Shown here piece after piece: positions 8,599-59,454 of a DNA stretch of 64,000 nucleotides (its first letter is position 1; each line of letters begins with the position of its first letter). Source of the DNA: Malacoraja senta (taxonomy: Eukaryota). The stretch is from positions 3,598,001 to 3,662,000 of the forward strand of contig CM075990.1 of NCBI GenBank assembly GCA_038087875.1, read 5' to 3'. The position numbers and the translations under genes were made by a program. Under the pieces are notes generated by a model. The model was not told where the DNA came from. It made no database searches and saw only the letters and a list, made by a program, of their open reading frames with translations.

Positions 8599-8798
8599 NN
8601 NNNNNNNNNNNNNNNNNNNNNNNNNNNNNNNNNNNNNNNNNNNNNNNNNNNNNNNNNNNNNNNNNNNNNNNNNNNNNNNNNNNNNNNNNNNNNNNNNNNN
8701 NNNNNNNNNNNNNNNNNNNNNNNNNNNNNNNNNNNNNNNNNNNNNNNNNNNNNNNNNNNNNNNNNNNNNNNNNNNNNNNNNNNNNNNNNNNNNNNNNN
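8599..8798. other. Assembly gap (200 N)
   Basis: Run of 200 n characters. Confidence 1.
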
Positions 8799-9370
8799 CT
8801 ATTAAAGGAGTATAAAAAAGGATTTTTTAACTTTTATCAAATTATTTCATAAGTTGAATAACCTTTATTAATTGAAGTAGACACAAAGTGCTGGAGTAAC
8901 TCAGCGGGTCAGCAGCATCTCAGGAGAAAAAGGATGGGTGACGTTTCGGGTCGGAACCCCTCTTCAGATTGAAAGTAGAGGTGGAAAGAACTGGAGGTGA
9001 TGAGAAGACATTAAAATGCTGACACATGGAACTGCAGATGTTGGTTTGCAAAAAAAAAGTGCTGGGGTAACGCAGCGGGCCAGGCAGCACCTCCGAAGGA
9101 CATGAATAGGTGATGTTTCGGGTCGGGAAATAGGTCACAAATCAGGGGTGATCAAAATAAACGTCTGCACTAATCTAACCCTCAGTTTGGTTGCCATCAC
9201 ATTGATGTGAGTTGTCGTGTGATAGAATCACACAGTACAAACACAGGCCATCAGCCCATCTCATCCATGCTGACCAAGATGCCCCATTCAGCTGGTCTCA
9301 TATTGTTGTGTTTGGCTCATAACCCTCTCAACCTATCCAATCCATGTGCCTGTCCAAATGCTGTTTTATT

Positions 9371-9683
9371 TTAGTTTAGTGATACAGCGATACAGAGATA
9401 CAGCGTAGAAACAGGCCCTTCGGCCACCCAGTCCGTGCCGACCAGTGATCCCCGCACACTAACACTATCCTACACACCTACAGGGACAATTTACAATTTT
9501 ACCAAGCCAATTAACTACAAACCTGGTACGTCTCCGGAGTGTGGGAGGAAACCGGAGCGCCCGGAGAAAACCCACGCAGGTCACGGGGAGAAGGTACAAA
9601 CTCCGCACAGACAAGACAGTACCCGTGGTCAGGATCGAACCCGGGTCTATGGCGCTGTGAGGCAGCACTCTACCGCTGTACAC
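9371..9683 (-). mobile_element. HE1-like V-SINE
   Basis: Same tRNA head, V-domain and LINE-like tail on the minus strand. Confidence 0.85.
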
Positions 9684-10151
9684 CAGGTTATCGTACCAAG
9701 GCTTAATTACTTTCTCTGGCTGCTATTCTAAGTTAAGTGCGTTCTTACTGAAATTCTTAACTAATTATTTTCTCAACAAAATGGCCAACAAAATAAGGAA
9801 AGAATTCATGCAGTTAATGATATTTATTGGCTGCAAGTCACAGATTAATTTGTAGGTACCTGACTGCTTAATGTACGTGGGTTAACGCAAACAGAGTTAC
9901 TTAGCAACCAAGTAACAGTTTAATAGAAGTATTTACCAAAGGAAAAAGTGAAGTTAAACGGGGAATTGAGTGTAATGTTGGTGTGGACTAATGATCATCA
10001 GGCATGGAGAGTGATGGCACTGAGATAGGCCCTTCACCCATTTGATCCGTGCTAACCTTCAGCCACCCATTTACTCCAATCCTACATAAGCACCATTTTT
10101 TTTCCTTCATACATTCTCCTCAACTCCTCTCAGATTCCATCACTCCATGAG

Positions 10152-10461
10152 CGGCTCGGTGGCGCAGCGGTAGAGTTGCTGCCTTACAGCGCCCAGAGAC
10201 GTGGGTTCGATCCTGACCACGGGTGCTGCTGTCTGTACGGAGTTTGAAGGTTCATCCCGTGACCGCTTGGGTTTCCCCCGGGTGCTCCGGTTTCATCCAT
10301 GCTCAAAGACGTGCAGCTTTGTCGCTAATTGCTTTGGTAAAAATTGTAAATTATCCCTGGAGTGTGGAGGATTGTGTTAGTGTGCAGGGATCGCTGGTCG
10401 GCACGACTCGGTGGGCCCAAGGGCCTGTTTCCGCCTGTATCTCCAAAGTCTAAAGTCTAAA
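10152..10461 (+). mobile_element. HE1-like V-SINE
   Basis: ggtggcgcagcggtagagttgctgcc...ggttcgatcc...gggcctgtttcc...aaagtctaaagtct. Confidence 0.85.
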
Positions 10462-10521
10462 CTGCACTTCAGTGAGCCAGCCAAGACGATGGGAGAGTGT
10501 GGAGATGTTGCTGCCTTTTGC

Positions 10522-13500
10522 ACAGATGTGACGGCCAGATGTGAAAACCAGATGTTAACACTGCAGAGTCTAGAATACATGCCAGGGTTTAGTTCATGAG
10601 TTCATAAGTCATATGAGCAGAAATAGGCCATTCAGCCCATCGGGTCCATTAAATCATGTGTAAGAAGGAACTGCAGATGCTGGTATAAGTCATAATTGTT
10701 CCTTCCTGCACAGAAGGTCTATCGTGCTCCATTGCTGAGGTAGGATTAGGGTTCAAGAACCTGATAGTTGTAGCACAAAAAATGACACAAAGTTCTGGAG
10801 TAAAGGGCCTGTCCCACTTGGCCGTCATTTACGCGACAGGCCGGTAGTGACTGACGCGCAACAGTCACGTGACGTTCGCGCGCGTCATCATGCGTCCGCA
10901 CAGCCGTCTGGAGTGCGTGACGTCATTTGAAGATAGGCACAAAATGCTGGAGTAACTCAGCGGGACCGGCATCATCTCTGGAGAGAAGGAATGGACGATA
11001 TTTCAGGTCGAGAATCTTCTTCAGCCTGAAGAAGGGTCCGACCCGAAACCTCCCCCATTGCTGAGTTACTCCTGCATTTTGTGTCTATCTCCAATCGTCT
11101 TGGCCTGGGAGTAGAAGCTGGGGGCCGATCCGGACCGCAACGGCCGTGAGCCCCAGGCCGAGCTCGGCGATCGCTTGCTTGTCTGCTTCTGCTGCTGTTG
11201 AAGGTGAGACGTTGCGCTGTGCCAGGGTCTTGGGCCTGTCCCACTTTGGCCGTCAGTTACGCGACAGGCCGGTGGCGCGCGAAGATTTTGTCCAGAACGA
11301 AATCCTGGAGCACAGCGCGATACTGCGCGCAACTCCACACTCCTCCACGCCACGCCATGCATCCGTCCCGCGCTACCCACACGCTACCCACACGCTACCC
11401 ACACGTTACCACATCGCGTATATGGCGCGCAAATGATGGCCAAGTGGGACAGGCCCTTAACTCAGCGTGTCAGGCAGCATCTGTGGACAACATGGGTAGG
11501 TGACGTTTCAGGTCATTCGGGACTCAAGCAGATATTCATGAGTCTGATGTTGTGGTGATTCAGGCTACAGTACCTCCTGTTCAACGGTAGCAGTGAGAAT
11601 GATAATAGATGAGAGTCAGATTAAGCTCTTAGGGCTGATGGAATCAAGGGATATGGGGAGAAAGCAGGAACTGATTTTGGATGATCAGCCATGATCATAT
11701 TGAATGGCGGTACTGGCTCGAAGGGCCGAATGGCCTACTCCTGACCTATTTTCTATATTTCTATGTTCCAATGCCGCCTTCTTGAGGCAGCTCCTCATGT
11801 CAATGCTTTCATTGGTGGGCAGTGCTGTGTCCTTGATAGATTGGGCGGAGTGCATTACTCTCTCCAGCCTCTTGTGTTCTGTGACTTGGAATTGCCACAC
11901 CAGATCACAACGCAGTCCGGGCACTTTCTACAGTGCATCTATACACATTTATTAGAGTCTTCAGTTATGTGCCAAATCTCTTTAGTTTAGTTTAGTTTAG
12001 TTTGGAGATACAGCGTTTTGGGCCGAACCCTTCTTCAGGTTTCGGCCCCGAAATGTTGCCTATTTCCTTCGCTCCATAGATGCTGCCTCACCCGCTGAGT
12101 TTCTCCAGCATTTTTGTAGGTTAATTGGCATGGTGTAAATGTAAAAATTGTCCCTACTGGGTGTGGGATGGTGTTGATGTGCGGGGATCGCTGGTCGGCG
12201 CGGACCCGGTGGGCCGAAGGGCCTGTTTCCGCGCTGTATCTCCAAACTAAACTAAACTAAAGAGATTTGGAACATAACTGAAGACTCTAATAAATGCGTA
12301 CAGATGCACTGTAGAAAGTGCCCGGACTGCGTTGTGATCTGGTGTGCCAATTCCAAGTCACGGAACACAAGAGGCTGCAGAGAGTAATGCACTCCGCCCA
12401 AATCTATCAAGGACACAGCACTGCCCACCAATGAAAGCATTGACATGAGGAGCTGCCTCAAGAAGACGGCATTGGAACATAGAAATATAGAAAATAGCTT
12501 CAGGAGTAGGCCATTCGGCCCTTCGAGCCAGTACCGCCATTCAATATGATCATGGCTGATCATCCAAAATCAGTTCCTGCTTCTCCCCATATCCCTTGAT
12601 TCCGTCAGCCCTAAGAGCTAAATCTGGACTCTCATCTATTAGCATTCTCACTGCTACCATTGAACAGGAGGTACAGTAGCCTGAATCACCACAACATCAG
12701 ACTCATGAATATCTGCTTGAGTCCCGAATGACCTGAAAACGTCACCTACCCATGTTGTCCACAGATGCTGCCTGACACGCTGAGTTAAGGGCCTGTCCCA
12801 CTTGGCCATCATTTGCGCACCATATACGTGACGTGGTAACGTGTGGGTAGCGTGTGGTAGCGTGTGGGTAGCGCGGGAAGGATGCATGGCGTGGCGTGGA
12901 GGAGTGTGGAGTTGCGCGCAGTATCGCGCTGTGCTCCAGGATTTCGTTCTGGACAAAATCTTCGCGCGCCACCGGCCTGTCGCGTAACTGACGGCCAAAG
13001 TGGGACAGGCCCAAGACCCTGGCACAGCGCAACGTCTCACCTTCAACAGCAGCAGAAGCAGACAAGCAAGCGATCGCCGAGCTCGGCCTGGGGCTCACGG
13101 CCGTTGCAGTCCAGATCGGCCCCCACTTCTACTCCCAGGCCAAGACGATTGGAGATAGACACAAAATGCAGGAGTAACTTAGCAATGGGGGAGGTTTCGG
13201 GTCGAGACCCTTCTTCAGGCTGAAGAAGATTCTCGACCCGAAATATTGTCCATTCCTTCTCCCCAGAGATGATGCCGGTCCCGCTGAGTTACTCCAGCAT
13301 TTTGTGTCTATCTTCAAATGACGTCACGCGCTCCAGACGGCTGTGCGGACGCATGATGACGCGCGCGAACGTCACGTGACTGTTGCGCGTCAGTCACTAC
13401 CGGCCTGTCGCGTAAATGACGGCCAAGTGGGACAGGCCCTTTACTCCAGAACTTTGTGTCATTTTTTGTGCTACAACTATCAGGTTCTTGAACCCTAATC

Positions 13501-13722
13501 CTACCTCAGCAATGGAGCACGATAGACCATCTGTGCAGGAAGGAACAATTATGACTTAAACCAGCATCTGCAGTTCCTTCTTACACATGATTTAATGGAC
13601 CCGATGGGCTGAACGGCCTATTTTTGCTCATATGACTTATGAACTCATGAACTAAACCCTGGCATGTATTCTAGACTCTGCAGTGTTAACATCTGGTTTT
13701 CACATCTGGCCGTCACATCTGT
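10522..13722. repeat. Large inverted duplication: arms 10522-12015 and 12232-13722, spacer ~216 bp
   Basis: acagatgtgacggccagatgtgaaaacc (10522) is the reverse complement of ggttttcacatctggccgtcacatctgt (ends 13722). Collinear throughout, including unique DNA and nested TEs. Mirrored ORF pairs (11146-11436 vs 12742-13098; 11198-11503 vs 12654-13046). Scattered substitutions and small indels separate the arms. Confidence 0.97.
10804..11457. mobile_element. PIF/Harbinger-type MITE inserted in a mini-Penelope; mirrored copy at 12788-13440
   Basis: TIR agggcctgtcccacttggcc / ggccaagtgggacaggccct. TAA TSD splits the PLE motif ctggag-taa-ctcagcg. Contains an internal PLE-derived palindrome at ~10930-11092. 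Confidence 0.88.
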
Positions 13723-13763
13723 CTACCTTCGATTTTCCAGCATCTATGCAGTTCCTTCTTAAA

Positions 13764-13950
13764 CAATTAACATACAAACCTGTACGTCTTTGGAGTGTGG
13801 GAGGAAAACCGAAGATCTCGGAGAAAACCCACGCAGGTCAAGGGGAGAACGTGCAAACTCCGCACAGACAGGACCCGTAGTCGGGATCGAGCCCGAGGCC
13901 TCCGGCTCTGCATTCGCTGTAAGGCAGCAACTCTACCGCTGCGCCAAGGT
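13764..13950 (-). mobile_element. 5' half of the V-SINE disrupted by the inverted duplication
   Basis: attaacatacaaacctgtacg...ctctaccgctgcgcc continues the SINE whose tail is at 11981-12015 and whose middle lies inverted at ~12116-12231. Confidence 0.85.
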
Positions 13951-14019
13951 TCTACGAAAGTGCAGGCACTGCTGCAGGGGAGAGGTTATACGAGATGTAA
14001 ATTCTCAGCAACTTGAAGC

Positions 14020-14570
14020 TGCAAAGTTCATAGGAGCAGAATTAGCCCATTCGGCCCATCATGTCTACCCCACCATTCACTCATTGCTGATCTATCTTTC
14101 CCTCTCAACCCCATTCTCCTGCCTTCTCCCCATAACCTTTGATGCTCGTACTACTTAAGAAGCAGTCAATCTCCGCTTTAAAAATATCAAATGACTTGGC
14201 CTCCACAGCAACTGGCAATGAATTCCACAAATTCACCACCCTCTGGCTAAAGAAATTCCTCCTCATCTCCTTTCGAAATTATACGTCCATCTATTCTGAG
14301 GCTGTGCCCTCTGGTCCTGGATTCTCCCACTAGTGGAAACATCCTCTCCACATCCATTCTATTCAGGCCTTTCACTTCTCGGTAAGTTTCAATGAGGTCC
14401 CCCCCCCCCCCCATATCCTTCTAACCTCCAGCGAGTACAGGCCCAGCGCCCACTCATTCCTGGGATCATTCTCGTAAACCTCCTCTGGACCCTCTCCAAC
14501 GCCAGCGCATCCTTCCTCAGATACGGGGCCCAAAACGCCTCACAATATTCCAAATGCGGTCTGACCAACA
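14020..14570 (-). mobile_element. CR1 LINE 3' fragment (degenerate)
   Basis: VRPHLEYCEAFWAPYLRKDALALERVQRRFTRMIPGM in ORF 14389-14634(-); CR1 3' UTR. Confidence 0.85.
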
Positions 14571-16094
14571 CCTCAGCAAAACAGGAATGGCTGGTGTGTG
14601 TTAGGGAGCCCAGAACCCAGAGTCTTTGCGTCAATGAATTCTGCTCTGCTCATCCTCTCTGGGACTGGTGCCACGAGGGGAAACGAGGTGAAAAATATTT
14701 CCTACCAACCTGTTGTAAAACCCAGCTGGGAGAATGTCAGAATGTGCTCCTTACTTTCCAAAACTCCACTTTAAAGTTGGCAAAATCTTTCCCCCCCCCA
14801 CCCTCACTTAGTATTCCAATGTAGTCTTCCTCTCTCTTAATCCTCGGAGTTTGGCAACTTCAGCCTCTGGTTTTAAATTCTGATCCTGCTGCCGTTTGAA
14901 GCTTCCAGTTGCCTGACTAATGCATGGACACAACACATAACTCTGTACCGGGCAGCGTTTTGCTGCTTGCTTCATAGCTTCATAAGTTCAAAGAGCAGAA
15001 ATAGGCCTATCAGGTCTAATCTGCCATTCTCCTGACTGCCCCCCATAACCCCATAACCCCATAACCCTATAACCCCTGACACCCGCACTAATCCTAGTCT
15101 GAAGAAGGGTCTCGACCTGAAATGTCACCCATTCCTTCTCTCCAGAGATGCTGCCTGTCCCGCAGTTACTCCAACATTTTGTGCCTGTCTTCGGTTTAAA
15201 CCAGCGTCTGCAGTTCCTTCCTACACGACAATCTATCAATCTCAGCCTTAAAAATATTCCTTGACTTGGCCTCCACAGCCTCTAACTGACACTTGTAGAT
15301 TGATCGATCGACTGACTGACTGACTGATTGTGATTGATTGATTGATTGATTGATTGCTGTTGTTCCACAGTTTTATTAATAAAATTGACAAATTCAGATG
15401 ATTCGCTGCATCTGCGGTAGAGTTGCTGCCTCACAGCGCCAGAGACCCGCGTTCAATCCTGACTACGGGTGCTGTCCGCGCGGAGTTTGCATGTTCCCCC
15501 TGAGACCGAGTGGGTTCTCTCCGGGTGCTCCGGTTTCCTCCCACACTCCAAAGACGTGTAAATTGCCCCCAGTGTGCGGGTGATCGGTGGTCGACGTGGA
15601 CACGGTGGACCGATTCCACACTGTATCTGTAAAACTGAAATCAAACTCACACAATTCCCATCAGTGGATCTCACACACCCAATGGTCCCATAAGGGAGAG
15701 GCAATCCGAACACGTTCCCTACAGCTGTGCTCGCGATTCTCAATGAGAGTGGGCTTTATAGAGCTCCGCAGTCGGGGAAACAGATGATTCCAATCATTTT
15801 CTTGGCAGCTTCCAAGTCTGTGGCTTGGTTCCCTTCCAACATGCTCTAACTTGTAATATGACACAGAGCCCTCAGTCCTCGCCTGCCCCTCCCACAACAG
15901 TATCTGCAAGCTCCTCTCTGCCCCCAAACTGCCCCCCCACCATTGAAGAGGGGCACGGCAAAGTGGTCCTGAGGTTAAAAAAAAACACAGACGTGTTATT
16001 GAATGGTCATGGAGTCGGAGAGAGATACAGTCCGGAAACGGGCCCCAGGGTCCAGCAACTCCACACCAGCCATCAATGACAAAAGGATTGTGAG

Positions 16095-25090: not shown

Positions 25091-25902
25091 GTAGACAAAA
25101 ATGCTGGAGAAACTCAGCGGGTGAGGCAGCATCCATGGAGCGAAGGAAATAGGCAACGTTGCGGGTCGAAACCTGAAGAAGGGTTTCGACCCGAAACGTT
25201 GCCTATTTCCTTCGCTCCATAGATGCTGCCTCACCCGCTGAGTTTCTTCTTTTTTTTTAAAATATTTTATTTTATTAGAAGTGAGTACAGTCATATGGTA
25301 CCAAAGTGCCTAATATATATTTGCATAATACATTTTATGTACATCTTCTTCTTATTATTATTTTTTTATTATAATAAAGAAATATAAGAAAAAGAAATTA
25401 GATAATAAAGAATAGAAAAACGTGAGATATATAGTGTGTGAAAAAGGAAAAAAAAGAGAATGAAAGAAGAAAGTTGAAGAAAAGAAAGTAGGAAAAAGAG
25501 AATAAAAAATACAAATAAAAAGAAATAAGGAGATCATTATTTATAATCTTGACCATCCCCCACCCAGTCCTCAAACAATTAGTTTCTACAATTATGTTGC
25601 ACCATATGATTCCAAAAAGACGACAATGGAGACCAACTCGTTAAGAATTGGTCTGATTTTTCTATTAGGAGGAATCACATTTCTTAAAGATGTACGGTAT
25701 CCAACATGCTTGCGATCCACATTTTATGCGTTGGTATTGGTGTATTTTTCCAAAATTTAAGTATTAGTTTTGTTGCTATTATTAAACCATAATTAAAAAA
25801 TAAATGTTGTGATAAGTTCAATTTATTCCCATCTTCCATTATTTCCCGCTGAGTTTCTCCAGCATTGTTGTCTACCTTTGATTTTCCAGCATCTGCAGTT
25901 CC
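25091..25902. mobile_element. Palindromic mini-Penelope insertion, later split by an L1 fragment
   Basis: 17-bp TSD ttctaaaacacttctag (25074-25090, 25903-25919); inverted arms around the hammerhead ctgaagaagggtttcgacccgaaacgtt (25173-25200). Confidence 0.85.
25248..25844 (-). mobile_element. L1-type LINE 3' fragment
   Basis: 14-bp TSD cccgctgagtttct (25234-25247, 25845-25858); poly(A) tail seen as a T-run; homologous to the ORF2 C-terminus at 27023-27235. Confidence 0.8.
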
Positions 25903-26651
25903 TTCTAAAACACTTCTAGTTTCGTTTCTCGGTTAGTTTAGAGATGCAGCGCTGAAACAGGCCCTTCGGCCCACCGAGTCTGCACCGACCAGTGATCCCC
26001 GCACACTAGCGCTATCCTACACACATTAGGGGCAATATAACATATTATACCAAGCCAATGGGAGGAAACCAGAGATCTCAGTGTAAACCCATGCTGTAAG
26101 GTTGTCCCAAGCACAGGGCCACGAATCCTTGAGTATTTGGGTACAAAATATCAAATATGTACAGTTCAATGGTTCGTCGTTGCTTTATTGCCACTTGTGC
26201 CAAGTGAAAACGCTCTGTGAAATTATTTTCTTACAAACAGTCCAGTAGATTATTGTCATATCATCCTCGATTAGCAAATTGTACAGAAATAGTCCACTGA
26301 GCCCGCCTGCGAGAGGCCCCATGTATTGGCGCCAATTTCCAAGTCCAGTCCATGTTCCAGTTGCTATGAGCGGTGCTCGATCTAGGCGAGCCCCAGGCTG
26401 CTGCAGGGCCTCCAGCTGTCACCTTCCTTGGTCCCTCAGTAACCAACGTCCTCACCTTTGTGCCCTGCTTCTTGCAAGTGATTAGAAAAGGTGGTAATAG
26501 AAAATAGAACATAGAAATATAGCGACATGGAAAATAGGTGCAGGAGTAGGCCATTCGGCCTTTCGTGCCAGCGCCACCATTCAATATGATCATGGCTAAT
26601 CAACCAAAATCAGTACCCCGTTCCTGCTTTCTCCCCATATCCCTTGATTCT

Positions 26652-27547: not shown

Positions 27548-30500
27548 TGTAATGAGTTGAGTCAAACACATATCAAGATACAACACATGTTTATTAAAGC
27601 TACTAACAGCATCGGTCTGCAGGACATTACAGTTCCTAGCAGCTACTCACACTGAATGGAGTAGGCAAGCTCTTGGTAATATGAATCGCATATTAGGCGG
27701 AGCAAATACTAACAAGCTCTGAGGAAATAACCAATCTACATATTTCCTTGTAGAAACAAAAGAAAGCATCGGTACATAGGAACATGGCGGCTAAGTGATA
27801 TAGGTAGCGGAACTTTAATAACGCATATGGGGAAGTTTGTATAGTTACACAAAATCGCCGTATCTACTGGGTGGCCTGCTAATCCGTCCGGCATGTGTGC
27901 GATACAAATCCGCCTCACCTCCTTTCACCGGAGAAGATACCGGGGAGAGAATGGGGGATGTGCCCGGAGTCCCGTCGGGGAGGGGAGGTGGTGAGATAGA
28001 CGAGCTGGGCGCCGAACGTCACAGGGAGGCCGCTGTGGAAATGGTCTCTGATAGTGGAGCAGCAGGACCGGTAGTGGGAGGGTATACAAAACGCAAGACA
28101 TCTGGATATGGAGTCGCAGGACGCGGTTCCTTCACTGGAAGGAGATGTTGACGGTTGCGTCTGTAAATGGCTCTGTCCGCTTCAACCAGATAAGAGGGCG
28201 TTTCTTTGGCAGGGCCGTAGATGTGACCCAGACGGCCATAGCCCTTGTTGGTCTGGAGACGAACCACCTGTCCACTGGTGAGAGGTTTACTGGATTTGTT
28301 GAAAAAACATTTCTGTGTATCGCGTTTGAATTGTAGTTGTTTCTGGACCGCAGGCGGAGAACGAACATGTGGCTGCAAAAGCTGCTGGGACACAGGCAGG
28401 GGAGCATGGGTTTGGCGAGACATTAGTCATTGGGCTGGGGAGACTAGTATGGGATCCCTTGCAATGTTCCCTTAAGTTGAGCAAGTCAAGGTTTACGTCC
28501 GATTTAGCAAGGTAAGAACGCTCCATTAGTTGTTTTGCGCTTCGGACAGCGCGTTCGGCGAGTCCGTTGGACTGCGGGAACTCAGGGCTGCTGGTAATAT
28601 GTCGGAAGTCCCATAGTTTTGCAAAGTTTTTGAAAGACTGGCTGGTAAACTGTCTGCCATTGTCGGACAGAAGACGTGCAGGGGAGAAGTGACGCTGCAA
28701 CTTCTCAATAACTACTTCAGATGTAATGGTTTGGAGTAAATTGATGTCAATCCAGCCCGAATAAGAGTCGACAAGTACCAGATAGTGTTTCCCATGCCAT
28801 CCGAATATATCGGTGGCTAACGTAGACCACGGGAGAGGAAGAACCGGGTGCGGCAGTAAGGGCTGTTTCTGCTGGTGTGGCATCAGGCTTTTGCAGATGG
28901 CGCAGACTTCGGTTTTGTCGTATATGTACTTGGTCATACCACGCCAGTAAAACATGCTTTGTGCCCGTTGTAAGGTTGCCTCCACGCCAGGGTGGCCCCT
29001 GTGGACGGTGTCGAAGTACTTGTCCTGGAGGACAGCTGGGACAACTGCCTTGTGGCCCTTGACTATAATCCCATCCTGTAACACCAGTTCGTCGCGAACC
29101 AGGAAGTATGGGCGGATCGCGAGCGGGGTGTTGTGTTGTTTACCCGGACAGCCACGCCGGATGACTGCGGACAGCAATTGTAAAGTCTCGTCAGCAGCCG
29201 TGTGTTCTGCTAGGCTGCTCAATCAATCAGTAGGAACATACGATACCTTCATTACTGAGAACTGGTCCTGTTCAGAGAGTTGTTGTTCGTTGGTTTTGCG
29301 TGATAGCGTGTCAGTTATGTGCATGTCCTTGCCTTTCTTATAGACCATGTTGAAATCAAACCGCTGCAGCTGCATCAAAATTCGCTGTAGTCGTGCTGGG
29401 GCAGCGTGGATGGGTTTATTCAAAATGGTGGTCAGTTTCTATAGTCACAGACTTCCCCAAAATAAAGTCCGTGAATTTTGTGCAGGCGAAAACCAATGCG
29501 AGCAATTCTTTTTCGATCTCGGCGCAACGTTGTTCCGTGTCAGTTAGTGTGCGAGAGGCGTAAGAAACAGGCTTGCAGTCGCCCTTGGCAGCGGTCTGCA
29601 GGCAAGCAGCGCCAAGTCCGTACTGGGACGCATCGCAGGTGAGCGTTACCGGTAACTCCAAAGCAAAGTTCCTCCTAATTTGAGGAAGGACATTCTTGCT
29701 ATTGAGGGAGTGCAGCGTAGGTTTACAAGGTTACTTCCCGGGATGGCAGGACTGTCATATGCTGAGAGAATGGAGCAGCTGGGCTTGTACACTCTGGAGT
29801 TTAGAAGGATGAGAGGGTATCTCATTGAAACATATAAGATTGTTAAGGGCTTGGACACACTAGAGGCAGGAAATATATTCCCGATGTTGGGGGAGTCCAG
29901 AACCAGGGGCCACAGTTTAGGAATAAGGGAGTAAGCCATTAGAGCGGAGATGAGGAAACACTTTTTCTCACAGAGAGTGGTGAGTTTGTGGAATTCTCTG
30001 CCTCAGAGGGCGGTGGAGGCAGGTTCTCTGGATGCTTTCAAGGAGAGCTAGATAATAGGCGAGAGTAGGTGCGCTGGCCAGCTGCAACTTGAGAGTGTCA
30101 AAAGCTCTTTGGTGCTGCGGATACCAGGACCATGCAGCGTCCTTGTGTGTTAGTTCTCGCAAGGGGGCAGATACGTCGCTGAGGTTGGGAATAAATTTTC
30201 CCTGGTAATTGACCATTCCGAGGAACCTTTGTAGACTCTCAACATCAGTAGGAACCGGCATTTCGGTGGTAGCTGCAGTTTTTGATGGGTCTGGTCTGAG
30301 ACCATCACTTGCGAAAACATGTCCGACGTAGGTAACATCTGGGAGTCGAAACTTGCACTTCAGGGGATTGAGTTTGAGCTGAATGTATTTGGCACTTTCT
30401 ATACTTTCTTCAGATTGGCATCATGTTCAGCCAGGTCGTGTCCGTAGACGAGACTGTCATCAACAATGATGGCGCATGGATACTCAGCAAACAATTGTTC

Positions 30501-34078: not shown

Positions 34079-36482
34079 ATAGAAACATAGAAACATAGAA
34101 AGTAGGTGCGAGAGTAGACCACCAGGCCCATCGAGCCCGCACCGCCATTCGCTCATGGCTGAACACCAAACAGACACCCTTACCCACAAACAGTAGACAC
34201 AAGACACAGAACACAAGACACTACCCTCCCCTTTATATCGCTATCACCCCTCTCCACCCCAAGAACCGCGTGATCTCCTGGGGGAGGCAAAAAAACGGAT
34301 AAAAACCCAGGTCCAATTCGGGAAAAAAATCCGGGAAATTCCTCTCCGACCCCAATCCAGGCGATCGACACTTGTCCAGGAGATCACTCAGGTCTTACTA
34401 TACTAACCATACCTAGGTCCATATCCCTGCCCTCTCCCCGTAGCCCCTTATCCCCTTGGCAGCTAAAAAAACATCTATTTTAGACTTAAATATATTTAAT
34501 GTTTCTGCTTCCACTGCTCCCTGGGGCAGTGAATTCCATAAATTAACCACCCTCTGGGTGAAGAAGTTCTTCCTCATCTCAGTTTTAAAAGAGCCCCCTC
34601 TTATTCTACAACTATGTCCCCTAGTTCTAGTTTCCCCGATCATTGGGAACATCCTCGGTGCATCCACCCGATCAAGGCCCCTCACGATCTTATATGTTTC
34701 AATGAGATCGCCTCTCATTCTTCTAAACTCCAAAGAGTAGAGTTCCAGCCTACTTAACCTTTCCTCATATGTCAATCCCCTCATTGCAGGAATTAATCTT
34801 GTAAACCTTCGCTGCACTGCCTCCAGGGCCAGTACATCCTTTCTTAAGTATGGACCCCAGAACTGTACACAGTATTCCAAATGTGGTGTCACTAATACTG
34901 TGTACAGCTGCAGCAAGACCTCCGTGTTTTTATACTCAATCCCCCTAGCAATAAAGGCCAAAACTCCATTGGCCTTCCTGATTGCTTGCTGCACCTGCAT
35001 ACTAACTTTTAGTGATTCATGTACTACTACCCCTAGATCCCTTTGCGTTGCATTACAACGCAGCTCCACCTCATTTAGAAAATAACTTGCCCTATCATTT
35101 TTTTTCCCAAAGTGAATGACTTCACATTTATTAGTATTAAATTTCATCTGCCAAGTTGTTGCCCACTCACCTAGCTTATCTATATCCTTTTGCAGACTCT
35201 TCCTATCCTCCTCATCCCCTACTTTTCCTCCCATTTTTGTATCGTCCGCAAATTTTGATATATTACACTTGGTTCCCTCCTCCAAATCATTTATATAAAT
35301 TGTGAACAACTGGGGTCCCAGCACCGACCCTTGCGGAACCCCGCTAGTTACCGGTTGCCATCCCGAGTATGAACCATTTATCCCCACTCTCTGCTTCCTA
35401 TTTGTTAGCCAATCCTCTACCCATGCTAATATATTAACCCCAATCCCATAATTTTTTATTTTTAGCAATAGTCTCTTATGTGGCACCTTGTCAAAAGCCT
35501 TTTGGAAGTCCAAGTATACCACATCCACCGGTTCCCCTTTATCCACCCGGGTTGTTACTTCCTCAAAGAATTCGAGCAGATTCGTTAAACAGGACTTCCC
35601 CTTCACAAAACCATGCTGGTTCTGTCCGATGAAGTCATGTTTATCCAAGTGCCCCGTTAGTGTTTCTTTAATAATTGTCTCTAACATTTTACCCACCACC
35701 GATGTTAGACTAACCGGTCTATAGTTACCCGCCTTCTGTTTACTTCCTTTTTTAAATATAGGTGTTACATTGGCCATTTTCCAATCCACTGGAACCGTTC
35801 CTGCCTCCAGGGAGTTTTGGAAAATTATCACCAATGCATCCACAATCCCCACCGCTATCTCCCTCAAGACCCTTGGATGTAATCCATCAGGCCCAGGGGA
35901 TTTATCCTCCTTCAGTCTCATTAATTTCCCTAATACCACCTCCTTGGTGATCTTAATAGTATTTAGCTCCTCCATTCCTACCGCCCCCTGTTTATCCAGC
36001 GTTGGAATATTTTTTGTGTCTTCTATGGTGAAGACTGATACAAAATACTCGTTTAATGCCTTTGCCATTTCCATGTTCCCCACCAACAACTCTCCAGTCT
36101 CACCCTCCAATGGACCAACGTTCACCTTAGCCACCCTTTTTCTTTTTATATAGCTATAAAAACTCTTACTATTAGTTTTTATGTTGTTCGCTAAATTCCT
36201 TTCATAGTCTATTTTCCCCGTCTTAATTAATCTCTTAGTTATTTTTTGCTGACCTTTAAATGCTTCCCAATCCTCTACCCTCCCACTATCTCTAGCTACC
36301 TTATATGCCCTTGCCTTCAGCCGAATACTATCCTTTATAGTTTTACTGAGCCATGGCTGACTGTTCTTTCCCTTACCCCTTTTTTTCTTCATAGGAATAA
36401 ATTTTTCTTGAAGGTTATACAGTAGATCCTTAAACGTACACCACTGCTCATGTACCGTCTTATTCTTGAGTCTGCTATCCCA
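34079..36482 (-). mobile_element. Young 5'-truncated CR1 LINE
   Basis: (ttctatgt)n tail at ~34079-34103; ~330-nt 3' UTR; open frame extends to ~36482. Confidence 0.93.
34413..36392 (-). CDS. CR1 ORF2 reverse transcriptase portion (659 aa, no endonuclease domain)
   Basis: KSPGPDG, NYRPVSLTS, YLDFQKAFDKV, GVPQGSVLGP and SKFADDTK motifs with no stops or frameshifts. Confidence 0.95.
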   Translation of the reverse strand: MKKKRGKGKNSQPWLSKTIKDSIRLKARAYKVARDSGRVEDWEAFKGQQKITKRLIKTGKIDYERNLANNIKTNSKSFYSYIKRKRVAKVNVGPLEGETGELLVGNMEMAKALNEYFVSVFTIEDTKNIPTLDKQGAVGMEELNTIKITKEVVLGKLMRLKEDKSPGPDGLHPRVLREIAVGIVDALVIIFQNSLEAGTVPVDWKMANVTPIFKKGSKQKAGNYRPVSLTSVVGKMLETIIKETLTGHLDKHDFIGQNQHGFVKGKSCLTNLLEFFEEVTTRVDKGEPVDVVYLDFQKAFDKVPHKRLLLKIKNYGIGVNILAWVEDWLTNRKQRVGINGSYSGWQPVTSGVPQGSVLGPQLFTIYINDLEEGTKCNISKFADDTKMGGKVGDEEDRKSLQKDIDKLGEWATTWQMKFNTNKCEVIHFGKKNDRASYFLNEVELRCNATQRDLGVVVHESLKVSMQVQQAIRKANGVLAFIARGIEYKNTEVLLQLYTVLVTPHLEYCVQFWGPYLRKDVLALEAVQRRFTRLIPAMRGLTYEERLSRLELYSLEFRRMRGDLIETYKIVRGLDRVDAPRMFPMIGETRTRGHSCRIRGGSFKTEMRKNFFTQRVVNLWNSLPQGAVEAETLNIFKSKIDVFLAAKGIRGYGERAGIWT

Positions 36483-37904
36483 GGATGCAGAGGATCTTTA
36501 CCAGAATGCTGCCTGCATTAGTGGGTATTAGCTACAAGGAGAAGTTCGACTAACTTGGATTGGTTTCTATGGAGCTATAGAGTCATCGAGTTCGACAACG
36601 TGGAAATAGGCCCTTTGGTCCAACTTGCCCACACCGACCGACATGCCCCATCTACACTATTCTCACAGGTCTCGGGATCGGAACTCTAACACAACACAGG
36701 GCTGCCTGAACTTCCTTATTCGTGAGAGAGATTAATTGGGTTTCACCCGCAGCAGGTAAATAATGGAGCCGGATCCACAATTTCCGAACCGGGTGGATTA
36801 GGAACCATGTGTTTCTTTACCCTGGCTGGGGATTAACCGCCTTCAGACTGTCGTTCTTCGAGTGCGGCAAGCCGACTTGGCCAGCTCTCTCCGTTCCTTT
36901 ATGAACTGCCGCAGGGGTTATTTGGGGGGATGTGAATGTGTCGGGGTTTTTTTGTTGGTGCGGGAACTTTTTATTAGACTGTGTAAATAGAACATCAGCC
37001 AAGTTTCCAAAACGATTAACAACTGGCTGCCAGTAAATTATTCCACAAAGAATCTTCAAGGAAAGTTGGTGTGGAAAGTTGCTAAAAATACAGGCTCTCT
37101 CTGTCACTGAACAGGTGTGAGCTTTGGAGGTGATTGGTGAGGATTCTACTAGCAAGGCACATTGAGTCCATTGAGTCACCAGTGTAGGAAGCAGTTCTTA
37201 ATATGATTCAGTTAGGCTGAGGCCTGTTTCCACTCTGACTCTATGACTCTATGAAGAGCAACTTTTTTACACAAAGGCTGGGAGGTATTTGGAACGAGCT
37301 GCCGGAGTAGGTGGTTGAGGCAGGAACTATCACAATGTTTAAGCAACATTTGAATCGGTACATGGATAGGACAGGTTTAGAGGTACATGGGCCAAACGCA
37401 CATGGGTGGGACTAGTGTTGGTTGGCGTGGGAAAGTTGGGCCGAAGAGCCTGTTTCCACGCTGTGTATCTAAGTTACTGACCGGTATTGAGCGCGGTGAA
37501 AGAAGATGTGCCAGCGAGTTCAGTTGGTGCACGCCACCCCGCCCAAGTCTGGCGTCATCTCAGCCGCACTGGGCACCACGGTCTGGAGAAGCTGGGGGTG
37601 TTCTCCTAGAGTCATTGAGTCGTACAGAGGCCGTGGTGGCGGATGCCTCCCAGGAGGCCGCAAAGAAGCTGAGCGACGGAGCCCGCGGCCGGTCCCAGCA
37701 TCGACGGCCCCCCATGGCTGGGGCCTGGGTTAAAGGAGCCCGCGGCCAGAGGCTGGGTTGGTGCCACGGAGGCATCAGGAGGGGACCCGGCGGCAGTCGT
37801 CGAGGAGTCCGGGTCGGCGATCGTCGAGGTCGGCGGTCGATGATGGCGCTGGCGGTCGAGGACGGCCCACGTGGGAGAGGGAGGACAAGCTGCCGTGGAA
37901 CAAA

Positions 37905-40771: not shown

Positions 40772-41926
40772 ATGCGGCGGTCCACACTCAATGAGACCGA
40801 GCCGAGCCCAGTACCGCTAGCGCAGCCTGACCAACAGCAGCGGGCTGGAGGTAAATCAAGACAAAAAACTGACCGGCCGGTTATATCTGACTCTGATGAG
40901 GAGGCTCCGCCTGAGAGCGGAAGAGGTAGCCGCCTGGGCCGCATGGAAAGGCTCATGGAGCAAATGCTCCAGCGAGACTTGCTTCGGGAGCTGGAGCAGT
41001 CTCGCCAAGGGAATTCAGGCACTCCCACATCAGTGCTTTACAATGCACTGGCCATCGCTTCCCCCTCTGCCGAAGGCAGCGTTGGCGACCAGGGCTGGGC
41101 TGGTCAGGAACAGGGGTCATTGGCCGAAGATATCAGGAGTACGCTTGGGGTACAGGACCAGGAAGAGCTGCTGGGTGTGGTGAATCGCTACGTGACTACA
41201 CCACGAGCAGGGCGGCCGTTGCAGCCAAAACTGGCGGCCAGCATTAACCACCTGTCCCTCAAACCCCTACAAGAACAGGTAGTCAATGAGGCACTAGAAC
41301 TCTACTCGCCTCCGGAGAACTGCAGTTCGCTCAATGTACCGGCCGTTAACAGCCAAATCTGGGGGTATGTTGGACAGAGTATCCGGAACCAGGAGCTAAA
41401 ATTACAACGTATCCTCAAGCTCCTGACGACAGGGATAACATCCTATGCTCGTTCCGTGGATGGGGTGGATATGACCACCAACCAGCAAGACACTCTGGCT
41501 CTGCTGTGCAACACTCAATATGAGATCAACAACCTCCGCAAGGAGATAATAAGACCTGCCCTCAATCCCAAATATGCAGAACTGTGTAAAACACCGGCCT
41601 CAGAGCCACAGATCCTGTTATTCGGTAAGGACTTGTCAAAACAAGTAAAAGACCTGGTGGAAGAGGCCAAAGCATTTGGCCTCATGAGGGCAGGCCCCGG
41701 AACGAGCAGACCCACACAACCCAGACGGCAGTACCCCACCGCGTCCACCAGTCGACGTCAAACTTATGGGACTGGTGAAAGCTCGGGGTCCGCATACCAT
41801 CCCCGAAAGCCTTTTTTAGACCAGGGCTCAGAGCGGGCCCCATGGAAAATGCGCCACCCCCAACCAGCAGTACATCCAGCGGTACAACGACGGATGAAGA
41901 AACTGAAGAAAGGAACACTCCCATAA
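40772..41926 (+). CDS. DIRS ORF1 (gag-like, 384 aa)
   Basis: Uninterrupted ORF at the ORF1 position (PENCSSLNVPAVNSQIW...LRKEIIRPALN...LFGKDL); frameshifted homologue in copy B. Confidence 0.8.
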   Translation: MRRSTLNETEPSPVPLAQPDQQQRAGGKSRQKTDRPVISDSDEEAPPESGRGSRLGRMERLMEQMLQRDLLRELEQSRQGNSGTPTSVLYNALAIASPSAEGSVGDQGWAGQEQGSLAEDIRSTLGVQDQEELLGVVNRYVTTPRAGRPLQPKLAASINHLSLKPLQEQVVNEALELYSPPENCSSLNVPAVNSQIWGYVGQSIRNQELKLQRILKLLTTGITSYARSVDGVDMTTNQQDTLALLCNTQYEINNLRKEIIRPALNPKYAELCKTPASEPQILLFGKDLSKQVKDLVEEAKAFGLMRAGPGTSRPTQPRRQYPTASTSRRQTYGTGESSGSAYHPRKPFLDQGSERAPWKMRHPQPAVHPAVQRRMKKLKKGTLP

Positions 41927-42131
41927 CTATGGAGGTAGGTGGGTCTGGTTCCTACCAGCATATAAAAAGTGGGGGAACTGTACTAACAGGTTGGAGATTA
42001 CACCTGTTCATTGAAGCATGGAGGTCTGTCACGAATGATAGTTATATACTTAACAGTATTCATGGATATAAAATAGAGTTCATTCAAGAAAACATGCCAC
42101 CAGTTCAGCACATACCCCAAAGGGTCTTTAA

Positions 42132-42712
42132 AGGCCTGTCTCACGAGTCTGCGGTCATTGGCAGCGAAACAGGAAGAATCTACCGCTCCTGGGCCGCCAT
42201 AGACCGCGCACTCGGTCAAACGCACAATTCCGGGGCCGTGCGGCGTTGTTCCCAACACCGCACAGTGCTAAAATAAAACCAACACTGTTCAAAAATATGT
42301 CCCTACCGCACAGCCTCCGCCAGTGAGGCACGAGTGCGGCACGGCCACCGCCACAGCCGCCGCCAGTGTGGCACGAGCGCCGTGCGTAGAACTTGCACCG
42401 CCACAGCCTCCGCCAGTGAGGCACGACCGCCGGCACTGCCGCCGCCACAGTCACCGCTACAACGCTGCGATCAGCACGGCCGCCGCCACAGCCCCGCAGA
42501 TCCAAAATGATGTCATCGCAGTCGGCCCGCCCTTTTTTTTTAACTTACCGCAAGCACGTGGGACCAGCCGTATTTAAATCACTCGGCCCCCACGCAGCAT
42601 CCGTGGCGCTCCCGTGGCATAGGCTCGGCGCTCTCGCCGTTGCCGTGTGGTCCCCTCTACAGGCGAAGCCGTGCTTCACCGCCGATGACCGCAACACCGT
42701 GAGACAGAGCCT
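42132..42712. mobile_element. GC-rich PIF/Harbinger-type MITE in DIRS pol; duplicate at 44513-45093
   Basis: TIR aggcctgtctcacg / cgtgagacagagcct; TAA TSD; empty site visible in DIRS copy B at ~54460-54487. Confidence 0.88.
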
Positions 42713-44292
42713 TAACCCTCTCAGTCAAAGAAAAACTAGAGGGTCAAGCAGAACTGGTGAGGTTACTTACAAAGGGTATCATTGAGAAATCCAAACATGA
42801 ACTTTTGGAATTTCTCAAATATATTTACCAAAAACAAAAAAGATGGTGGATGTCGCATCATCATTGACTTAACCTCACTAAATACCTTTGTTAAGTATGT
42901 ATATTTCAAAATGGAAACATTTGTAACTGCCAAACAACTGATTTCCAAAGGATACTTTATGGCAAGCATTGATTTAAAAGATGCCTACTATTCAGTACCC
43001 ATTCACAAGGGTCATCGCAGATACCTGAAAATTTAGCTGGATGGGGCAACTATGGCAGTATAAAGTATTGCCTAATGGGTTGACATCAGCCTTAGACTAT
43101 TTACCAAGATATTAAAACCAGCCTTGGCAACATTAAGAAAACAAAGACATATTGTCATGGCATATCTTGATGATATTCTAATAGTAAGCAAAACCATGGA
43201 GTTGGCTAAATCAACTGTATTAGCTACCAAACAATTGTTTGAAACCCTGGGATTTGTCATACATCCAGATAAATCTAAGTTGACGCCATCCACAACTATG
43301 GACTATCTGGGATTCACAATTAACTCAGTCCACATGTCTGTAACGTTGCCAAAAGATAAAGCAACAGAATTGGCACAGACGTGTAACAATTTAATGGTTA
43401 GCAATCGACCAACCATCCGACAAGTGGCAAGAGTAATTGGCAAAATGGTAGCAGCATTTCCAGCTACACAATTTGGACCCCTGCACTATCAAAACCTACA
43501 AAGGGCAAAAGTACAGGCGTTAAAACGACATACAGGTCACTTTGACCGAACCATGAAATTACCCATTGAAGCTATATCAGAGTTACAGTGGTGGATAGAG
43601 CACATTTGGCATAGTTCAAGCCCTATCATCATCAATAACCCAACATTAACTATACAAACAGATGCCAGTGCTCAAGCCTGGGGAGCAACTAATACCATAT
43701 CCAGCACAGGTGGTAGATGGACTAACCTAGAATCATCTTTACTACAAACACTGGGCATAAATTATTTGGAAATGTTGGGTGCGTTTTATGGTTTAAAAGC
43801 ATATTCCACGAATATGCACCATCTGCATGTTCGTTTACAAATTGATAATACCACGGTGGTGGCCTATATTAACCATATGGACGGAATAAAATCGATATCG
43901 TGACAATTTTGTCAACAAAATCTGGCAATGGTGTGTCGATAGACATATTTGGCTATCAGCAACTTACCTACCAGGTAAGCTAAATACAGTGGCAGACACC
44001 AGGTCATGCAAATTCAATGATAACATCGAATGGATGTTAAATCCCTGAGCTTTTGCTAAAATTACAAAGCAATATGGCACACCAGATATCGATCTCTTTG
44101 CATCCAGACTAAATCACCAGGTACCAATGTATGTCGCTTGGGAACCAGACCCTGAGGCAGCAGCGATAGATGCATTCGCGCTGAACTGGGGAAACTATTT
44201 ATTTTATGCTTTCCCCCCCTTCTGCCTCATCAGTAGGGTACTACGCAAAATACAGATGGACTCTGCTTCAGGTATTTTGATAGTACCCGACT
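42713..44292 (+). pseudogene. DIRS ORF2 remnant: RT, RNase H and Dam-like methyltransferase domain
   Basis: ORFs 42782-43036, 43124-43903 and 44127- (DIDLFASRLNH...DAFALNW...YAFPPF); stops and frameshifts. Confidence 0.88.
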
Positions 44293-45388
44293 GGAACACT
44301 CCCATAACTATGGAGGTAGGTGGGTCTGGTTCCTACCAGCATATAAAAAGTGGGGGAACTGTACTAACAGGTTGGAGATTACACCTGTTCATTGAAGCAT
44401 GGAGGTCTGTCACGAATGATAGTTATATACTTAACAGTATTCATGGATATAAAATAGAGTTCATTCAAGAAAACATGCCACCAGTTCAGCACATACCCCA
44501 AAGGGTCTTTAAAAGCCTGTCTCACGAGTCTGCGGTCATTGGCGGCGAAACAGGAAGAATCTACCGCTCCTGGGCCGCCATAGACCGCGCACTCGGTCAA
44601 ACGCACAATTCCGGGGCCGTGCGGCGTTGTTCCCAACACCGCACAGTGCTAAAATAAAACCAACACTGTTCAAAAATATGTCCCTACCGCACAGCCTCCG
44701 CCAGTGAGGCACGAGTGCGGCACGGCCACCGCCACAGCCGCCGCCAGTGTGGCACGAGCGCCGTGCGTAGAACTTGCACCGCCACAGCCTCCGCCAGTGA
44801 GGCACGACCGCCGGCACAGCCGCCGCCACAGTCACCGCTACAACGCTGCGATCAGCACGGCCGCCGCCACAGCCCCGCAGATCCAAAATGATGTCATCGC
44901 AGTCGGCCCGCCCTTTTTTTTTAACTTACCGCAAGCACGTGGGACCAGCCGTATTTAAATCACTCGGCCCCCACGCAGCATCCGTGGCGCTCCCGTGGCA
45001 TAGGCTCGGCGCTCTCGCCGTTGCCGTGTGGTCCCCTCTACAGGCGAAGCCGTGCTTCACCGCCGATGACCGCAACACCGTGAGACAGAGCCTTAACCCT
45101 CTCAGTCAAAGAAAAACTAGAGGGTCAAGCAGAACTGGTGAGGTTACTTACAAAGGGTATCATTGAGAAATCCAAACATGAACTTTTGGAATTTCTCAAA
45201 TATATTTACCAAAAACAAAAAAGATGGTGGATGTCGCATCATCATTGACTTAACCTCACTAAATACCTTTGTTAAGTATGTACATTTCAAAATGGAAACA
45301 TTTGTAACTGCCAAACAACTGATTTCCAAAGGATACTTTATGGCAAGCATTGATTTAAAAGATGCCTACTATACAGTACCCATTCACA
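44293..45388 (+). repeat. Near-identical direct copy of 41912-43007
   Basis: Constant offset of 2381 bp; duplicated ORF translations; only a handful of substitutions. Confidence 0.96.
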
Positions 45389-58736: not shown

Positions 58737-58918
58737 GGTAGACAAAAGTGCTGGAGAAACTCAGCGGGTGCAGCAGCATCTATGGAGCGAAGGAAATAGG
58801 CAACGTTTCGGGCCGAAACGTTGCCTATTTCCTTCGCTCCATAGATGCTGCTGCACCCGCTGAGTTTCTCCAGCACTTTTGTCTCCCTTCGATTTTCCAG
58901 CATCTGCAGTTCCTTCTT
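58737..58918. mobile_element. Palindromic mini-Penelope insertion
   Basis: 75-bp arms (58737-58811, 58813-58887), one mismatch, 1-nt centre; 19-bp TSD aaacagttcaaatatacca (58718-58736, 58919-58937). Confidence 0.9.
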
Positions 58919-59454
58919 AAACAGTTCAAATATACCATATCTACATACAAACAAGTTAAAGTCAAGTACAATAGAGACGACACGATACAACTTTATTCAT
59001 CTCCGGAGGGAACTTGGTCTGCCGACAGTCACAACACACAACAAGGTACTCGAAAACTCAAATTAAAAGTGAAAACAAAATGAAAAAGACAAGTTGTCTG
59101 GCTGCTGTGTGCACAGCGCCTTCACTGGAACACATGAACAAACAAACACAGGCTTACCCCCTGGGCAGAGGATTCTAAACTAGAGTGCCCCCCACACCAG
59201 ACCAGGTCCCCCTTTCTTCTCCCACCGTCCCTCACGCCGGGTCCATTGCCGCTGAGGCTCCACCACCGTCAAGGAGACGCTGCCGCCGCCGCGACCCCCA
59301 TCGCCGCCACCAAGGCTCTCCCCGCCACCGCCGCTCCTTCAGCCCAGACAGGCCTTGCCACCCGGCTTCTCCGGCGAGTCGGGCCCACCAGGGCGCGTTC
59401 CGGTCGTCGGCGCGGTTATTCGGCGGGTGGATCGGGCCGCGCAGCTCCCGGGAC

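What the first reader, a model, noticed from the sequence alone, without database searches (positions are those of the whole stretch)
10522..13950. 1.5-kb inverted duplication embedded inside a single split Penelope-derived element: apparent RT jump onto genomic DNA and back
Seen: the order is flank A (10522-12015, ending in a SINE tail), PLE 5' part (12016-~12117, ending ccagcatttttgt), inverted copy of [SINE middle + flank A] (~12116-13722), PLE 3' part (ctaccttcgattttccagc...cttaaaca, 13723-~13764), then the rest of the SINE. The two PLE parts rejoin as ...ttttgt|ctacc..., matching related copies at 25860-25912 and 58870-58923. Both switch points share TGT microhomology. The inverted copy ends at aattaacctaca, essentially the insertion site (aattaacataca at 13764). 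Inference: cDNA primed at the nick, jumped to genomic DNA ~1.6 kb upstream, copied it up to the nick, then resumed on the RNA. This would be a PLE-driven way to make local foldback duplications of host DNA.
Basis: partly seen in the sequence, partly recalled or inferred. Interest (0 to 1): 0.85.

Follow-up and report, generated by a model that had tools for sequence, protein, structure and literature searches.

The report
Penelope insertion with folded-back flank duplication
A real 1.5-kb mirror-image duplication of host DNA sits inside a Penelope-like retrotransposon insertion that carries a 15-bp target-site duplication; it likely arose when one end of the insertion break folded back and copied its own flank, an outcome reported for human L1 elements and rare in this genome.

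Summary
The duplication is real: arms 10522-12015 and 12232-13722 are 97.2% identical, 13 of 29 substitutions are CpG transitions, and contigs of a near-identical run show about double depth on the arms. The element is Penelope-like. Ordinary copies of this family are TSD + inverted arm + forward arm with tail + TSD; the inverted arm ends at position 77-85 in 32 of 39. The junction at 12117 is that usual second-end junction, and the 13723-13765 piece is the usual tail. Best reading (0.55): the left end folded back through the element's hairpin, copied about 1.6 kb, was joined to the tail-bearing end, then lost about 180 bp at the palindrome centre. One miniature analogue exists (L300, 66 bp); none of kilobase size among 224 tail sites. 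Similar outcomes are published for L1. New variant of a known kind; interest 0.4.

The parts
10522..12015 (+). Left arm (flank A): host DNA, about 59% covered by repeats, ending in the 3' tail of a minus-strand SINE
12014..12015 (.). Junction J1, 2-nt microhomology; likely scar of the central deletion (or the fold-back point in the rival model)
   Evidence: role inferred
12016..12038 (-). Inverted stub of the PLE pLTR (positions 15 to -10; hammerhead-core part)
   Evidence: the same centre junction occurs at 19 other places
12039..12117 (+). PLE pLTR arm, positions 1-78 (numbering on window 58805-58922)
12113..12127 (-). Inverted copy of the 15-bp target-site duplication; first 5 nt shared with the PLE arm (junction J3)
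12128..12231 (-). SINE middle, present once, inverted relative to its original place
12232..13722 (-). Right arm: inverted copy of flank A; last 3 nt shared with the PLE tail (junction J4)
13723..13765 (+). PLE tail, positions 79-118, with a private 2-nt insertion
13764..13778 (+). Right copy of the target-site duplication (1 mismatch to the left copy)
13779..13946 (-). Remainder (5' part) of the interrupted SINE

Best explanation
A Penelope-like element inserted into a SINE with a 15-bp target-site duplication, and the left break end, likely carrying a second cDNA, is inferred to have folded back through the element's own hairpin and copied about 1.6 kb of its upstream DNA before being joined to the tail-bearing right end. 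Steps: (1) staggered cut, shown by the TSD; (2) two cDNAs, one on each end, started at about position 118 and about position 78, inferred from the family anatomy and from in vitro work on a related PLE; (3) snap-back at the hammerhead stem and DNA-templated synthesis through the arm, the TSD, the SINE middle and flank A, inferred; (4) joining to the tail by 3 shared bases, junction shown, process inferred; (5) the resulting near-perfect palindrome lost about 180 bp from the left side of its centre, leaving the 216-bp spacer, inferred. Steps 3-4 most likely happened during integration (about two thirds of this confidence) or else soon after, at a break in the finished head-to-head insert. The polymerase (RT or host) is not identified.
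For: TSD of 15 bp against a family mode of 14 (range 10-19 in 39 copies). J3 is a standard TSD/arm junction: arm ends at 77-85 in 32 of 39. Tail-only copies beside an inverted arm are common in targeted searches (36 rows) and their inverted arm often ends at position -10 to -13, as the stub here does. Of 19 other places with this exact centre junction, 13 have the tail on the same side as here, 6 on the other (two of the 6 are duplicates, L312 and L318 scored by eye). Local templated fillers occur at these junctions: 13 of 77 fillers match their own flank over 15 nt or more, against a shuffle mean of 1.8 and maximum of 6 in 200; inverted-upstream 6 against 0.4 (about half of the 13 are PLE- or repeat-derived on inspection). 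L232 shows a forward arm extended about 30 bp past the inverted arm into flank and then joined to a tail. PMC11167929: an anole PLE cuts and extends both strands and starts RT at two sites bounding the tail. bioRxiv 2024.12.14.628481 section 9: L1 break ends give inverted duplications with the TSD kept. PMC10766186: long palindromes are unstable and gain spacers secondarily.
Against: The intermediate palindrome and the deletion are not observed. No clean short overshoot (arm followed by inverted TSD) was found in any tail site tested, whereas the other geometry was (L300, L291, L256). L232 has no identified TSD and its arms are only 81% alike. In 3 of 31 full copies the two arms carry different subfamily variants, and some forward arms are longer than the inverted arm (L115), so snap-back is not the only route in this family. 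No kilobase-scale second case in 224 tail sites.
Confidence: 0.55

Rival explanations
1. Fold-back of the second cDNA end straight onto the flank at 12015 (2-nt homology, loop of about 230 nt), copying of 1.49 kb, joining to the tail; the spacer was later inverted by recombination between the arms, or the old top strand was flipped during repair. Same core idea as the best explanation, different fold point.
For: L300 is exactly this product in miniature: 15-bp TSD, inverted arm, 66-bp inverted copy of the upstream flank (52 nt exact), tail, TSD. L291 and L256 are shorter cases (20 and 16 nt). With the spacer turned round the locus reads as an intact left flank plus TSD plus inverted arm.
Against: Needs an extra inversion and an extra 25-nt forward piece that the second cDNA cannot supply (seen in L259, but uncommon); needs the minority centre orientation (6 of 19). 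Derived changes do not single out one arm as a fresh copy.
Confidence: 0.2
2. The element inserted normally; later a replication fork met its 78-bp hairpin and switched templates twice (at 12015 and at the hairpin base), giving the present orientation in one step. The element would be the trigger, its RT not involved.
For: Two switches suffice; J4 lies at the hairpin base; full head-to-head copies are the usual class (36 of 39); the T-run at positions 72-78 has taken later insertions in L179 and L187.
Against: Needs the minority centre orientation; the switch at 12015 is about 120 bp from the hairpin; element and TSD show 3 substitutions in about 160 bp, close to the 1% per copy of the arms, so little time separates insertion and duplication (weak); no similar event at about 200 other hairpins.
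Confidence: 0.13
3. One reading: one cDNA jumped from RNA to genomic DNA 1.6 kb upstream, copied it to the nick and resumed on the same RNA.
For: Exact collinearity of the two element pieces with microhomology at both switches. One L1 case of co-inserted local transcript is reported in PMC10191854.
Against: The copy runs 8-15 bp past the priming site, so it needs a sister chromatid as template; both breakpoints coincide with positions that ordinary copies use; the inverted stub and the loss of the SINE middle are unexplained.
Confidence: 0.05
4. Assembly artefact (read fold-back at the hairpin, or two haplotypes assembled head to head).
For: This assembly does contain such an artefact centred on a PLE hairpin at C14:3405178-3417324. 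Six of 9 arm gaps are in homopolymers. No junction-spanning read was seen, and X15 may be the source sample.
Against: Natural mutation spectrum on both arms, no gap, asymmetric spacer, coherent TSD, about double depth on the arms and a contig matching right-arm alleles without substitution in X15.
Confidence: 0.04

Closest known systems
L1-induced inversion or inverted duplication at the reciprocal break end (bioRxiv 10.1101/2024.12.14.628481, Fig. 4; passages and section 9 read, figures not held)
   Same: Retrotransposon insertion with TSD kept, local inverted copy of upstream DNA on the reciprocal end, 2-3 nt homologies, sizes up to kilobases.
   Different: L1 with poly(A) in tumours and cultured cells; here a PLE in an inherited genome, with element sequence at both the centre and the outer junction and a lost SINE middle.
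Short foldback inversion upstream of somatic L1 insertions and twin priming (PMC10191854; passages read)
   Same: Inverted duplication 5' of the target site, alone (3 cases, 0.3%) or with twin priming (1 case).
   Different: 52-220 bp there, 1.49 kb here; twin priming itself (Ostertag and Kazazian 2001) seen only as a cited title.
PLE head-to-head insertions with 30-40 bp tail (PMC8557442, PMC3846280, passages; PMC11167929, parts 1-2 of 4)
   Same: Inverted 5'-truncated arm, tail at one end, short TSD, two RT start sites, both strands cut in vitro; host DNA captured between pLTRs in Adineta.
   Different: The passages read describe capture of distant host DNA, not an inverted copy of the insertion's own flank.
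Fold-back templated inverted duplications at double-strand breaks in yeast (PMC11724301; abstract and outline only) and secondary rearrangement of palindromes, ODIRA (PMC10766186; passages)
   Same: Microhomology-primed fold-back synthesis followed by end joining; palindrome centres widened later.
   Different: Mostly 5-34 bp in yeast and not linked to a retroelement; ODIRA gives triplications.

Membership tests
EN+ Penelope-like element | pLTR follows an ORF with RT and C-terminal GIY-YIG endonuclease | tested here: met
   In L030 the same pLTR (96% to the reference copy) lies about 150 bp behind an ORF with GIY-YIG (PF01541, E 1.9e-4, 22.1 bits, just under the 22.6 cut-off); an upstream frame holds a YIDD motif but had no Pfam match. 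The finding's own copy has no ORF.
EN+ Penelope-like element | Inverted truncated arm plus 30-40 bp tail at one end | tested here: met
   39 of 90 unselected tail sites have TSD + inverted arm; arm ends about 35 nt short of the tail end in 32 of 39.
EN+ Penelope-like element | Minimal hammerhead motif in the pLTR | tested here: inconclusive
   Core-like boxes flanking a stem are visible by eye and fit the description in PMC4209133; Rfam found no hammerhead in 9000-16000; cleavage untested.
Neptune/Nematis clade | CX2-5CxxC linker before GIY-YIG, and RT phylogeny | tested here: inconclusive
   A CX4CxxC motif is present in the L030 ORF (criterion from PMC8557442); no tree was built.
TPRT insertion with reciprocal-end fold-back duplication (L1 type) | TSD preserved between primary and reciprocal breakpoints | tested here: met
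   15-bp overlap of the SINE halves.
TPRT insertion with reciprocal-end fold-back duplication (L1 type) | Inverted copy comes from the reciprocal (upstream) side, with short microhomology | tested here: met
TPRT insertion with reciprocal-end fold-back duplication (L1 type) | Duplication and insertion arose in one event | tested here: inconclusive
   Similar divergence of element and arms; relatives X1 and X3 show single depth on the arm, but whether they hold the element could not be read.
   It extends 8-15 bp past it.
Read fold-back artefact | Error-type differences between arms, contig gap, single read depth | tested here: not met

The most novel reading that the evidence does not exclude
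Penelope-like elements in this genome integrate by priming a cDNA on each end of a staggered cut and often close the gap by hairpin snap-back; when the snap-back overshoots it copies kilobases of host flank, so PLEs are a recurrent, inherited source of local inverted duplications, with this locus and L300 as the large and small ends of one size range.
Probability: 0.3. Interest if true: 0.65.

Novelty: new variant of a known kind. Interest (0 to 1): 0.4.

Why it matters
How PLEs make their head-to-head arms and tail is unresolved; this family gives thousands of genomic products (6754 exact tail matches) that fit two-ended priming, and the locus shows that such an insertion can come with a kilobase duplication of host DNA in the germ line. 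The outcome itself is published for L1, it is rare here (no second kilobase case in 224 tail sites), and the duplicated DNA is repeat-rich with no gene found, so the biological effect of this instance is probably small.

Tried and rejected
Second apparent case at C14:3697728-3698609 is a long inverted arm running into the PLE ORF, not flank. 12-kb palindrome at C14:3405178-3417324: artefact. Fillers in L179 and L187 are later repeat insertions; L132, L278, L266/L328 matches are PLE-internal. Screen of 220 loci (1.25 Mb) for inverted repeats of 100 bp or more: 57 candidates, 3 with unique sequence, none with a PLE at an end. 462 kb around the window: only the finding and the artefact. Search for an inverted TSD after a forward arm: no convincing hit. 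With a TSD required, fillers matching the flank over 11 nt were only modestly above shuffles (7 of 40; inverted-upstream 3 against 1.2). Laying contigs was swamped by repeats; no junction-spanning contig, and empty versus filled site in relatives could not be read; 5 of 21 runs were laid. Polarising arm differences gave no asymmetry. Arm concordance (24 of 31 against 11.6 shuffled) cannot separate snap-back from two RNAs of one source. Rfam: nothing. Pfam on 12 of 58 window ORFs: only mobile-element domains. Literature searches for a PLE-linked flank duplication returned no such report in their listings; the library lacks most subscription papers and the L1 preprint's supplements were not open. 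Earlier findings of the scan: none.

Full report
Observation. Self-comparison confirms inverted arms at 10522-12015 and 12232-13722, 97.2% identical, 216 bp apart. They differ by 29 substitutions, 13 of them CpG transitions, and 9 gaps. The outer 279 bp has only these two full matches in the 1.94-Gb genome. Element positions below are numbered on the natural copy at window 58805-58922 (1-118).

Is it real? The assembly contains a fold-back artefact 200 kb away, a 12-kb palindrome centred on a PLE hairpin that abuts a gap, has a 100% direct duplicate, and differs by 47 gaps (44 homopolymer) and 1 CpG transition. The finding has the opposite spectrum, and derived changes fall on both arms (11 left, 15 right, 16 columns unpolarised). 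In run X15, which is nearly identical to the window and may be its source, contigs on the arm have depth 64.2 and 63.7, single-copy contigs about 30-35, and the contig across the left boundary 51.1, as expected for a mix. X1 (53.5 against 46.9) and X3 (15-24 against 21), about 95% identical, look single-copy; X2 is ambiguous. No junction-spanning contig was seen.

The element. The same pLTR follows a GIY-YIG ORF in L030, so it is Penelope-like. An exact 35-nt tail occurs 6754 times. Of 90 distinct unselected tail sites from the first 28 Mb of C1, 39 have TSD + inverted arm, 22 a TSD-like match without an arm, 29 no TSD call. TSDs are 10-19 bp, mode 14; the inverted arm ends at position 77-85 in 32 of 39; 36 have a long forward arm, 2 only the tail. 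Targeted patterns recovered many more tail-only copies beside an inverted arm. This fits PMC11167929 (parts 1-2 of 4 read): an anole PLE cuts and extends both strands and starts RT at two sites that bound the tail. Head-to-head arms and tails are described in PMC8557442 and PMC3846280 (passages).

Anatomy of the locus. The two SINE halves overlap by 15 bp on intact copies (48 of 112 pairings): 12113-12127 and 13764-13778 are a TSD. The SINE looks tRNA-derived; the name V-SINE/HE1 is recalled, not tested. Junctions: J1 at 12015 (2 nt shared), flank to an inverted stub (positions 15 to -10); J2 at 12038, stub to forward arm 1-78; J3 at 12113-12117 (5 nt), arm to inverted TSD; J4 at 13720-13722 (3 nt), inverted flank to tail 79-118; J5, tail to TSD (2 nt). 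J2, J3 and J5 are ordinary junctions of this family; only J1 and J4 are special. The J2 junction occurs at 19 other places, 13 with the tail on the same side as here and 6 on the other.

Why the jump-and-return model fails. After a staggered cut the TSD exists on the left end only as a top-strand overhang, which cannot template a copy of the same sense. The inverted tract includes 8-15 bp of it. The neat rejoin at 78/79 follows from the two positions ordinary copies already use.

Mechanism. Best reading (0.55): the left end, extended by a second cDNA from about 78 to -10, snapped back, copied the arm, TSD, SINE middle and flank A, and was joined to a tail-only right end; the long palindrome then lost about 180 bp on the left of its centre. 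This uses only canonical cDNA ends and gives the observed orientation. Against it, no clean short overshoot was found; L232 is a partial analogue (about 30 bp of flank copied past the arms, no TSD, arms 81% alike). First rival (0.2): fold-back directly onto the flank, as in L300, where TSD, inverted arm, a 66-bp inverted flank copy, tail and TSD follow each other, plus a later spacer inversion. Both share the core claim that the reciprocal end folded back (0.75 together). Second rival (0.13): post-insertion template switching at the hairpin. Local templated fillers are real at these junctions (13 of 77 against a shuffle mean of 1.8), though about half of the 13 are element- or repeat-derived, and a stricter set with TSD required gave a weaker excess.

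Frequency. No second kilobase case in 224 distinct tail sites, 220 loci screened for inverted repeats or 462 kb of contiguous sequence. Many of these sites had only 1.5 kb of flank, so long duplications could be missed there.

Known counterparts. The L1 preprint 10.1101/2024.12.14.628481 (passages and section 9; figures and supplements not seen) reports inversions and inverted duplications at the reciprocal end with the TSD kept, and argues for end joining rather than template switching in one case. PMC10191854 (passages) reports 52-220 bp fold-backs in 0.3% of somatic L1 insertions. PMC11724301 (abstract) describes fold-back inverted duplications at yeast breaks; PMC10766186 (passages) covers secondary widening of palindrome centres; the centre-break papers were seen only as cited titles. 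Searches listed no report of this outcome for a PLE.

Verdict. A real, inherited inverted duplication coupled to a PLE insertion, best explained by fold-back synthesis at the reciprocal end. New variant of a known kind; interest 0.4.

Noticed in passing
G000:C14:3402519-3426350 (L006-L008): Assembly artefact: 12-kb palindrome centred on a PLE head-to-head hairpin, next to a 200-N gap, with a 100% identical 8.8-kb direct duplicate. PLE hairpins appear to seed fold-back errors in this assembly.
   Followed up: yes
L300 (G000:C12:6758377-6761409, minus strand): Miniature analogue: TSD, inverted arm, 66-bp inverted copy of upstream flank, 20 nt matching DNA 448 bp downstream, tail, TSD.
   Followed up: yes
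L050, L090, L259, L320: Independent insertions of the same PLE family at or next to the same position of the same SINE family as in the finding; a recurrent target site.
   Followed up: partly
L052, L061, L066, L070, L073, L075: Centres of head-to-head copies expanded into arrays of a 34-bp unit built from the hammerhead stem, up to about ten copies.
   Followed up: no
L179, L187; window 25248-25844: Later insertions inside the forward arm, two of them in the T-run at positions 72-78.
   Followed up: partly
L232 + strand, about 500-860 bp upstream of the tail: Old 370-bp palindrome (81% arms) next to a composite PLE insertion.
   Followed up: partly
window 41912-43007 and 44293-45388; inverted matches near 52916-54476: 1096-bp direct duplication at 99.5% identity with related inverted copies; probably a young repeat.
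   Followed up: no
G000:C14:3739704-3766262: Tandem duplication of about 12 kb at 99.4% identity with unevenly spread, CpG-rich differences; recent duplication or two haplotypes.
   Followed up: no
window 34413-36497 (-), 28287-29222 (-), 52326-52844 (-): 694-aa RT frame, an integrase frame and a weak SAM-like integrase match; only mobile-element domains among 12 ORFs scanned.
   Followed up: partly
window 8599-8798: 200-N scaffold gap 1.7 kb left of the finding.
   Followed up: no
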